Source of the DNA: a virus
Lineage: Duplodnaviria > Heunggongvirae > Uroviricota > Caudoviricetes
Reading direction: 5' to 3' (one strand)
Length of the DNA: 7,759 nt
Virus record (IMG/VR): IMGVR_UViG_2609459834_000008
A model generated the notes under the pieces. It worked only from the letters and a program-made list of their open reading frames with translations, made no database searches and was not told the origin of the DNA. Each line of letters opens with the position of its first letter. Positions within the stretch are counted from its first letter, which is position 1. Of the stretch, positions 5,241 through 7,036 are shown piece by piece. Position numbers and translations under genes: made by a program.

Positions 5241-7036
5241 TTATTTAACTCTGTAATAACTGGAACCTACTCCAATGAACTCATATATGTTTGGCGATGA
5301 CAGAGTAGTTATAAGAGTTGGTCCATTATAAATTCCTAATGTTTGTCCATTAAAGTTTACAGACAGAAGATCAATTAAAACTCTATTTCGAAGTAGATTA
5401 TAGGATAGAATTGTTAAATCTGGTAGCATTAATGTCTTACCTCCAACCAATGTCCCACCAAACTTTATTATATTCCTAGAATTATCCGGCCAGGGAGATG
5501 CTGAGTTAATATCATGCAATAATAGAATCTTCCCCGAGTCACGATAATCGGATAATGAATAAAATACTCCTTTTCCTGATGTGTGTTCGTTATCATAAAC
5601 TCCTGTCGGGGCGTTTGTGAGAACAGGTTGATTAAATCTAGTACCTTCGAATCTTGCAATATCAGGTGCAGAAGTAGACATCGTTAGTGTTGGTTGTCCA
5701 TTGCCATTAAAACCAACTGCGTTATCTCCAATACTTGATCTTGAAAATTCATTTACATCAAAGAAACCAATATCAGTGAATCCACCTTCGCTCACTGATT
5801 CATGGCTGTTTCCGGTAAATGAAAAGTTAGTAAAACGAGACGAGCATTTAAAAGCCGGACCTGATTCTGTAGTGTGGTGCCTACCAAACTTAACACCAGT
5901 GAATGTAATGTTATCACCATTTACACAATCCATAACATTGCTGATGTACCCAGAACCTGTGTTCCATCCAATAGAACCGCCAACCCATGAAAAACCATCA
6001 AACTCCAGAATGTCAAATATCTTACCGCCTGTAAAAGTATAGTGTGTGCAGTTTGAGAACATACATGACTTCATTCTTCTGCCACGGAAACCATACTTAG
6101 TGCCAAACAGATGGATATTAACAAAATTCCCGCCTTCTATTCCTTGAATGCTGTCGCCACTCAAATCAGTGCCGCCTACAAATTCTTTGGTACCATCTAC
6201 TATGATGTCATTCCACAGCCCATAATGCCCCATGCCAGATCCTTCTCCGCCGCCATTTCCATCTTTGAATGAGAAAGCTCGATATGTTTGCAGAACCCAT
6301 AAGTTGCTTATAGTGGGGTTCTCTATAACATCTAAACTGATGCATGCTGCCGTGCGCGGGTAGGTGTCATCTGGTAACTGATGCGCTCTTGATGTAAATC
6401 TGACAACTTTTGTGACGTTCGATATCTCTGACGAAGGGGTTCCATTACACCCAGTAACTCCGGTTAATATACAAGTTCCATCAGAATTGCTAGTAAGTCC
6501 GGTTGCGAAAAACGACCCGGAATTAGTGCTGAATTGACAGAAGTTACTCACCGGTACACCTGCGGTGTTGTTGTCAGTTAAAGGCCATGTAATTATATTT
6601 CCACCATTAGCCTGAAATGGATTTGAAGCAAGAGTAATGGTGTTTGATGTTTTGCTTATCACATCTGTGTTTTCTGAGCCTACATATTGCGATAAAACCA
6701 AGCGGTCTAATGAATAGCAAACGTTACCAAATACAATGCCCCTTGAGTTAAGTCCAACTCTTATCTCTGGGACATTCCCCAGAGAGTTTATTACACCTTC
6801 ACCTCTTATTCCTATGGATACAGGGATTCCATCAATGGAAAATGGTATTGCAACCTCTGTGATTATGTTTACTTTTGAGTTTGCTGTAACAATCAACTCT
6901 CCGTAGCCAAGCCGTACTAACGAATAAATAGCAAGTTTAATTACTGGCGAATCATTTGTGATGCCAGGTTCCTCAATGAAATTTTTTACTTCATTGATTC
7001 GGTACCCATTAAGCAGTCCTACACAAGCCCATTTAG
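5241..7036 (-). pseudogene. 3' portion (598 codons) of a Cys-containing, Gly/Asn/Ser/Thr-rich predicted beta-helix protein (tailspike / polysaccharide depolymerase / adhesin-like), 5'-truncated by IS5
   Basis: The reading frame is open with no stop right up to the IS5 boundary at 7036/7037. The first 23 codons of the 621-aa track ORF are encoded by IS5 terminal sequence, so the native N-terminus is missing. Composition (many G, N, S, T; repeated GxxN-like segments; about 11 Cys) suggests a parallel beta-helix fold. Fold and function are inferred, not demonstrated. Confidence 0.65.
7033..7036. repeat. TTAG, candidate IS5 target site (YTAR) abutting the IS5 end
   Basis: IS5 is known to insert at YTAR tetranucleotides and duplicate them. 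TTAG sits immediately before the first IS5 base (7037). The second copy would be beyond the window. Confidence 0.6.

What the first reader, a model, noticed from the sequence alone, without database searches (positions are those of the whole stretch)
5241..7036. Predicted beta-helix, Cys-containing protein interrupted by IS5
598 codons of open frame end at the IS5 boundary with no native start, so the gene is 5'-truncated and its N-terminal part should lie beyond the IS5 copy. The composition and about 11 cysteines suggest a secreted or virion-type parallel beta-helix. If it is a depolymerase or tailspike, its substrate may be the same glycan the neighbouring AT3 enzyme modifies.
Basis: inference. 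Interest (0 to 1): 0.55.

Follow-up and report, generated by a model that had tools for sequence, protein, structure and literature searches.

The report
IS-truncated phage tailspike gene remnant
The open frame is the back three-quarters of a P22-type phage tailspike gene in a decayed E. coli prophage, cut off from its start by an IS5-family insertion sequence; it is an ordinary pseudogene, but its sugar-recognising part appears tied to O90/O127-type hosts.

Summary
On the minus strand, 597 native codons plus a stop (7034..5241) run open up to an insertion-sequence end at 7037, and there is no credible native start. The window is a whole 7,759-bp E. coli draft contig that ends inside the IS.

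Sibling contigs about 99% identical carry the uninterrupted gene. It encodes a 789-aa P22-like tailspike: Head_binding domain 1-113, Tail_spike_N 141-188, then the part kept here, residues 193-789. It lies beside arc/mnt and the ejection-protein genes of a prophage remnant next to dacD.

- The element is ISKpn26 (IS5 family), not K-12 IS5.
- There are 10 cysteines.
- Whether the 5' part survives beyond the IS cannot be told.

All seven complete E. coli records carrying this receptor module are among the only 11 of 5,426 genomes with the O90/O127 O-antigen cluster. Relatives occur in Salmonella O13 serovars. This supports the idea that the tailspike and the neighbouring AT3 acyltransferase act on the same O-antigen.

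Verdict: a known kind of gene with an uncharacterised receptor module; low interest.

The parts
5241..7034 (-). 3' fragment of a P22-like tailspike gene. It comprises codons 193-789 of the intact 789-aa protein plus the TAA stop, and covers the whole beta-helix receptor-binding/enzymatic part and the C-terminal domain.
7033..7036 (-). CTAA target site at the insertion point, between codons T192 and K193 of the intact gene.
   Evidence: The intact allele reads ...GAAACAA-CTAA-ATGGGC...; the window reads CTAA and then the IS end.
7037..7759 (+). Left 723 bp of an ISKpn26 (IS5-family) element: terminal inverted repeat from 7037 and transposase ORF from 7105, running off the contig end.
   Evidence: 99.9% identity to annotated ISKpn26 copies and 92% to K-12 IS5A. 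The transposase product hits PF05598 and PF01609; its translation is.
7035..7106 (-). 24 IS-derived codons (ATG at 7106) that extend the open frame by chance and create the annotated 621-aa chimeric ORF.
5219..5236 (.). GC-rich hairpin with T-runs on both strands. It is a bidirectional terminator-like site between the convergent AT3 and tailspike genes.
   Evidence: sequence
4142..5215 (+). AT3-family acyltransferase gene (357 aa), convergent with the tailspike. It is the presumed lysogenic-conversion O-antigen acetylase.
3041..4048 (+). Gene for a 335-aa protein with a signal-peptide-like N-terminus and no family assignment. It belongs to the same prophage-end module.
   Evidence: No Pfam, PHROG or NCBIfam hit. 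It lies between int and the conversion genes in L001, L013, L022 and L023. The AF2 model has pLDDT 89.8.

Best explanation
The frame is the promoter-less, start-less 3' portion of the tailspike gene (the P22 gene 9 equivalent) of a defective P22-like prophage that lies next to dacD in an E. coli strain.

In the intact 789-aa protein, residues 1-113 fix the spike to the virion. Residues about 123-789 form a portable receptor module: a small Tail_spike_N domain, a right-handed parallel beta-helix and a C-terminal domain. By analogy with solved tailspikes (inferred, not tested), this module trimerises, then binds and cleaves the host O-antigen during adsorption.

An ISKpn26 (IS5-family) element inserted at a CTAA between codons 192 and 193. 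This separated the enzymatic module from its start codon, its promoter and its virion-attachment domain, so the fragment is a pseudogene.

The convergent AT3 acyltransferase is the prophage's conversion gene. It is inferred to acetylate the same O-antigen, so that lysogens are not adsorbed or trimmed by this tailspike.

Host distribution indicates that the receptor is the fucose-containing O90/O127-type O-antigen and its Salmonella O13 relative.

Shown here: the truncation, the IS identity, the domain architecture of intact alleles, the prophage context, the beta-helix fold and the serogroup association. Inferred: enzymatic activity, substrate, and the protective role of the AT3 enzyme.
For: Truncation and IS:
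- The intact 789-aa alleles lie at the same locus. Nucleotide identity is about 99% and ends exactly at 7036.
- PF09008 Head_binding covers residues 1-113 (E 7e-66) and PF18668 covers 141-188 in the intact allele.
- The fragment itself matches PHROG tail families only from profile position 175 onward.
- IS end, transposase and CTAA target.

Prophage context:
- Neighbours in L003-L006 are arc/mnt and gp16, gp20 and gp7 homologues.
- Other E. coli carry P22-like prophages with different tailspike alleles at the same dacD-adjacent site.

Fold:

Module portability:
- Residues 123-789 are 92% identical to the C-terminal part of the 895-aa E2348/69 tail fibre, whose N-terminus is unrelated.

Receptor inference:
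- A 77%-identical homologue is in Salmonella serovar Worthington, an O13 serovar (PMC8550085). An AT3 cluster member comes from serovar Poona.
- The O13 O-antigen is reported to be related to O127 (Perepelov 2010, cited in PMC7685785).

Precedent for an acyltransferase protecting O-antigen from its own prophage's tailspike: BTP1 GtrC (PMC4413052).
Against: - The fragment has no Pfam or NCBIfam hit and no sequence relative in the PDB, so catalytic residues and chemistry are unknown.
- The model is only moderate (mean pLDDT 72.5), and its first 110 residues are unmodelled.
- No deposited phage genome carries this module; the only matches are 30%-identical Vibrio phage proteins. No functional phage is therefore known to use it.
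- The AT3 link is not obligate. The same module is paired with gtrA/gtrB/DUF6056 in CM2010-0578/1 and with no conversion gene in the Salmonella Worthington prophage.
- The serogroup of the window's own strain was not determined.
- The serogroup association rests on four lineages.
Confidence: 0.9

Rival explanations
1. The IS did not simply interrupt the gene. An IS-mediated adjacent deletion or recombination between IS copies removed the 5' part, and perhaps the rest of the prophage. On this reading the fragment is a terminal stump and nothing lies 'beyond the IS'.
For: - The contig ends inside the IS, so only one junction is visible.
- The predicted 5'-fragment::ISKpn26 fusion protein is absent by exact look-up, and it did not surface in a homology search that used it as the query.
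- The prophage is already heavily deleted in sibling strains.
Against: - The junction sits at a canonical CTAA target with the IS end intact, as expected for simple transposition.
- The negative searches have little power. The window allele is a mosaic near the junction (92% identity over 6900-7036), so the guessed N-terminal sequence may differ. A short fragment could also be hidden inside a 90% cluster: the 621-aa ORF itself is.
Confidence: 0.35
2. The chimeric 621-aa ORF (ATG at 7106 inside the IS end) is expressed from read-out transcription of the IS. It would yield a free depolymerase lacking the head-binding domain, which could trim the cell's own or its neighbours' O-antigen.
For: - The frame is continuous from an ATG in the IS into the complete enzymatic module, with no internal stops or frameshifts.
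- Differences from intact alleles are mostly synonymous: 17 synonymous against 6 non-synonymous.
- A prophage tailspike affecting the lysogen's own O-antigen length has a precedent in BTP1.
- From my own knowledge, not tested here: N-terminally deleted P22 tailspike is reported to fold and stay active.
Against: - No promoter-like site above chance was found.
- The only Shine-Dalgarno-like motif (GGTGAG) lies 10 nt before the ATG, and that ATG overlaps the transposase start on the other strand.
- The product would have no signal peptide and no lysis functions to release it.
- The open extension into the IS is only 24 codons and is readily explained by chance.
Confidence: 0.05
3. The frame encodes a bacterial secreted beta-helix protein (an adhesin, an autotransporter passenger or a pectate-lyase-like enzyme) unrelated to phages.
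Against: - Uninterrupted alleles carry the P22 head-binding domain and sit within the tail/ejection genes of P22-like prophages.
- The fragment hits PHROG tail families.
- RefSeq annotates the full-length relatives as phage tailspike protein.
Confidence: 0.01

Closest known systems
Tailspikes of P22-like podoviruses (P22 gp9, Sf6 gp14, HK620 gp9)
   Same: - The intact allele has the same N-terminal Head_binding domain: PF09008 over residues 1-113, full profile length.
- It has the same gene position after the ejection-protein genes and arc/mnt.
- O-antigen conversion genes lie between the tailspike and int.
   Different: - The receptor-binding part has no detectable sequence similarity to any PDB chain and no Pfam family.
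- It carries a CBA120-type Tail_spike_N domain between the head-binding domain and the helix.
- Its family is very small: 17 clusters at 90% identity and 16 representatives among 1.84 billion proteins.
- The copy in this window lacks the first 192 residues.
CBA120 TSP1/Gp66-type tailspikes (PF18668 Tail_spike_N)
   Different: The virion attachment differs: here it is a P22 head-binding domain, or an unrelated 228-aa N-terminus in E2348/69. The window fragment starts just after this domain, so it does not contain it.
Prophage-encoded O-antigen acyltransferases next to tailspike genes (Sf6 Oac; BTP1 GtrC)
   Same: An AT3-family membrane acyltransferase (PF01757, phrog_3333 'O-acetyltransferase') lies directly beside the tailspike gene at the int-proximal prophage end. 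The BTP1 work shows that such an enzyme protects the O-antigen from the prophage's own tailspike and blocks superinfection (PMC4413052).
   Different: No biochemical or genetic test exists for this AT3 enzyme. The host O-antigen inferred here is O90/O127-type rather than the Shigella flexneri or Salmonella O4 types. The O127 gene cluster already encodes its own CatB-related acetyltransferase, so this would be an additional modification.
IS5 / ISKpn26 insertions at YTAR targets
   Same: The terminal repeat GGAAGGTGCGAA..., a DDE_Tnp_1 transposase and a CTAA target.
   Different: Only one end is visible, so the 4-bp duplication cannot be confirmed. The element is ISKpn26 rather than K-12 IS5 (92% identity).

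Membership tests
P22-like phage tailspike protein | N-terminal head-binding (virion attachment) domain, PF09008 | tested here: not met
   It is absent from the window fragment: no Pfam hit at E<=1. It is present at full length, E 7e-66, in the uninterrupted alleles at the same locus. The fragment is therefore a truncated member, not a functional one.
P22-like phage tailspike protein | Central right-handed parallel beta-helix | tested here: met
   [not shown]
P22-like phage tailspike protein | Gene located in the late/tail region of a P22-like (pro)phage, after the ejection-protein genes | tested here: met
   In sibling contigs L003-L006 the intact gene is followed by arc/mnt and gp16, gp20 and gp7 homologues. 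This cannot be seen in the window itself, because the contig ends in the IS.
P22-like phage tailspike protein | Homotrimer that binds and cleaves O-antigen | not testable with these tools
   Only indirect evidence exists: an exclusive association with O90/O127 hosts among complete genomes.
Pectate-lyase-superfamily sequence families (e.g. Pectate_lyase_3, Beta_helix) | Significant match to a Pfam beta-helix profile | tested here: not met
   hmmscan against Pfam-A gave no family at E<=1. The similarity is at the fold level only.
IS5-family insertion sequence (ISKpn26) | Terminal inverted repeat and DDE_Tnp_1 transposase | tested here: met
   GGAAGGTGCGAACAAG at 7037. The transposase starts at 7105 and hits PF01609 and PF05598. 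Identity to annotated ISKpn26 is 99.9%.
IS5-family insertion sequence (ISKpn26) | 4-bp YTAR target duplicated at both ends | tested here: inconclusive
   CTAA is present at the visible junction and occurs once in the intact allele. The other end is not in the contig.
Prophage O-antigen acetyltransferase (AT3, Oac-like) partnered with the tailspike | AT3 domain protein encoded between the tailspike and int/att, acting on the tailspike's receptor | tested here: inconclusive
   The domain and position criteria are met. The activity and the shared substrate were not tested. The same tailspike module is also found with a gtr module or with none.

The most novel reading that the evidence does not exclude
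The retained 597-aa module may be the complete catalytic part of an uncharacterised family of O-antigen depolymerases. The family would be specific for the fucose-containing, blood-group-H-like O90/O127 O-antigen of E. coli and the related Salmonella O13 antigen.

The module is exchanged as a cassette between P22-like and unrelated prophage backbones. It is paired alternately with an AT3 acetylase or a gtr glucosylation module that masks the same receptor.

No cultured phage, solved structure or Pfam family represents it.
Probability: 0.55. Interest if true: 0.35.

Novelty: new member of a known kind. Interest (0 to 1): 0.2.

Why it matters
For genome annotation, the 621-aa 'hypothetical protein' (WP_032177421.1) should be labelled an IS-disrupted tailspike pseudogene.

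Biologically, it is a routine case of prophage decay. The useful by-product is a testable assignment: this rare receptor-binding module, and the conversion genes next to it, appear specific for O90/O127-type O-antigen. That includes the EPEC prototype E2348/69 and probably Salmonella O13.

If confirmed, the module could serve as a serogroup-specific binding or cleaving reagent. It would also add a new sequence family to the structurally known tailspikes.

Tried and rejected
- Sequence-family searches on the fragment gave nothing: Pfam at E<=1, NCBIfam, and PDB sequences. Only PHROGs recognised it.
- A protein search of 50,697 phage genomes found only 30%-identical Vibrio phage proteins.
- I tried to recover the missing 5' part. 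I built the predicted 228-aa N-terminal-fragment::ISKpn26 fusion from the L003 allele and a complete ISKpn26 copy. The exact look-up was negative. A homology search with it returned only contig-end partial tailspikes without the IS-derived tail; for example, P0048 ends at ...KWACVG. These negatives are weak, because the window allele is a mosaic near the junction.
- I tried to infer the strain's lineage or serogroup from the sbmC-dacD backbone. The best complete genome is only 97.8% identical, so this was uninformative.
- A native start and promoter just inside the junction would have refuted the finding; none was convincing.
- Rfam and tRNA scans of the window were empty.
- I considered whether the 335-aa neighbour is a dedicated periplasmic partner of the AT3 enzyme. 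I rejected this as an obligate pairing, because an 82%-identical copy sits next to gtrABC with a 40%-identical tailspike, and a copy also sits next to the gtr-type module in CM2010-0578/1.

Full report
**What is in the sequence**

The window is an entire draft contig of an E. coli assembly (JNPE01000069.1, GCA_000703505.1). Its layout is as follows.
- 1-458: an IS1 end.
- sbmC and dacD, both on the minus strand.
- About 750 bp with no convincing gene.
- 3041-4048 (+): a gene for a 335-aa protein with a signal-peptide-like N-terminus.
- 4142-5215 (+): an AT3 acyltransferase gene.
- 5219-5236: a bidirectional terminator-like hairpin.
- 5241-7106 (-): the long minus-strand frame of the finding.
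- From 7037 to the contig end: an IS5-family element.

G+C falls to 30-44% between about 2800 and 7000, against 47-55% in the flanks.

**Checking the observation**

- The frame is open for 597 native codons (7034..5244) plus a TAA stop. From the segment's composition, the chance probability is about 1e-18.
- The IS terminal repeat GGAAGGTGCGAACAAG begins at 7037. The last native bases read CTAA on the coding strand.
- The frame happens to stay open for 24 more codons into the IS, up to an ATG at 7106. This is why databases hold a 621-aa 'hypothetical protein', WP_032177421.1.
- Inside the native part, the first in-frame ATG is at codon 268 and the first alternative start (TTG) is at codon 47.
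- Promoter-like matches are at the level of shuffled sequence.

Two details need correcting. There are 10 cysteines. The element is ISKpn26, 99.9% identical to annotated copies and only 92% identical to K-12 IS5A.

**What the gene is**

An exact-protein look-up of the neighbouring AT3 gene retrieved sibling contigs with the same sbmC-dacD-335aa-AT3 arrangement, about 99% identical over 3317-7036. In all of them the homology stops exactly at 7036.

In these contigs the gene is uninterrupted and encodes 789 aa. The window frame aligns without gaps to residues 193-789, with six substitutions.

The intact protein has three parts.
- Residues 1-113: the P22 tailspike Head_binding domain (PF09008, E 7e-66).
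- Residues 141-188: a Tail_spike_N domain (PF18668).
- The remainder: a 597-aa region with no Pfam family.

It is followed by arc/mnt and homologues of P22 gp16, gp20 and gp7. The prophage has itself lost its head and lysis genes. Other E. coli carry P22-like prophages with different tailspike alleles at the same dacD-adjacent site.

The IS inserted at the single CTAA between codons 192 and 193.

**Fold**

An AlphaFold2 model built on 14 homologues has mean pLDDT 72.5. The first 110 residues are unmodelled, and the rest is mostly above 70 and nearly all beta.

PHROGs places the fragment in phrog_22294 (profile positions 175-778 of 779) and in phrog_1640 'tail protein'.

There is no sequence relative in the PDB. 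The only matches in deposited phage genomes are 30%-identical Vibrio phage proteins. The family is very small: 17 clusters at 90% identity and 16 representatives among 1.84 billion proteins.

**Modularity and the link to the AT3 gene**

Residues 123-789 are 92% identical to the C-terminal part of the 895-aa tail fibre of an unrelated prophage in E2348/69, whose N-terminus is different. In E2348/69, in strain S1 and in the window lineage, this module sits beside the same AT3 gene and the same 335-aa gene.

The pairing is not obligate.
- In CM2010-0578/1 the same module is paired with gtrA/gtrB/DUF6056.
- In a Salmonella Worthington prophage a 77%-identical tailspike has no conversion gene beside it.
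- A 40%-identical tailspike is paired with gtrABC plus the 335-aa gene.

**Receptor inference**

The O127-specific part of the E2348/69 O-antigen cluster (wzx, wzy, two glycosyltransferases and an acetyltransferase) is present in only 11 genomes. All seven records are among those 11.

Outside E. coli, the evidence points to Salmonella O13.
- A homologue comes from Salmonella serovar Worthington, listed among O13 serovars in PMC8550085.
- A member of the AT3 cluster comes from serovar Poona. That Poona is an O13 serovar is my own knowledge, not a tool result.
- The O13 O-antigen is reported to be related to O127 (Perepelov 2010, cited in PMC7685785).

I therefore infer that the module recognises the O90/O127/O13-type O-antigen, and that the adjacent AT3 or gtr modules modify that same polymer. 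BTP1 provides a precedent: its acyltransferase GtrC protects the O-antigen from the prophage's own tailspike (PMC4413052). None of this was tested biochemically. The serogroup of the window's own strain remains unknown, because its backbone is at most 97.8% identical to any complete genome.

**What remains open**

Expression of the chimeric 621-aa ORF is possible in principle, but no signal supports it.

**Verdict**

The object is a tailspike pseudogene in a decaying P22-like prophage. That is a well-known kind of feature, although its receptor-binding module is uncharacterised. Interest is low. The modest added value is the specific, testable O90/O127 (O13) receptor assignment.

Noticed in passing

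[not shown]
In several prophages it sits between int and the O-antigen conversion genes, with either AT3 or gtr modules. It has 28-38%-identical homologues in Firmicutes, in unrelated gene contexts. Its function is unknown; a periplasmic glycan-binding or glycan-processing role is plausible.
   Followed up: partly
window 2939-3400: The upstream region and the first ~95 codons of the 335-aa gene are strongly diverged from the otherwise ~99-100% identical sibling loci (20-80% identity per 100 nt). They do match the allele in strain S1. Smaller divergent patches lie at 6100-6300 and 6900-7036. The pattern is a recombination mosaic.
   Followed up: partly
window 2805-3090: This stretch is 99% identical to the last ~60 nt of intS plus the downstream spacer of the argW-integrated P22-like prophage of strain S1. 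Only a stub of the integrase gene appears to remain here, and no att site or tRNA is present.
   Followed up: partly
window 1-458 and 7037-7759: The contig is bounded by IS1 (InsA ORF at 127-402, minus strand) at one end and by ISKpn26 at the other. Both ends are therefore assembly breaks at repeats. Relative to sibling contigs, IS1 replaces yeeA and the genes beyond it.
   Followed up: partly
[not shown]
   Followed up: partly
L023 (E. coli CM2010-0578/1) 1761-8292: The same tailspike (about 91% amino-acid identity over the full length) in an O90/O127-cluster strain is paired with gtrA, gtrB and a DUF6056 protein instead of the AT3 gene. These are two different conversion chemistries beside one receptor module.
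   Followed up: partly
window 459-2950: The sbmC-dacD backbone of this strain is at most 97.8% identical to any of the 5,426 complete E. coli genomes, which is unusually divergent for core genes. In E2348/69, and from my own recollection of the K-12 map, the his operon and the O-antigen cluster lie nearby.
   Followed up: no
window 7033-7314 (-): A 93-aa ORF inside the IS, antisense to the transposase, terminates at the TAA of the CTAA target site. It is probably fortuitous.
   Followed up: no
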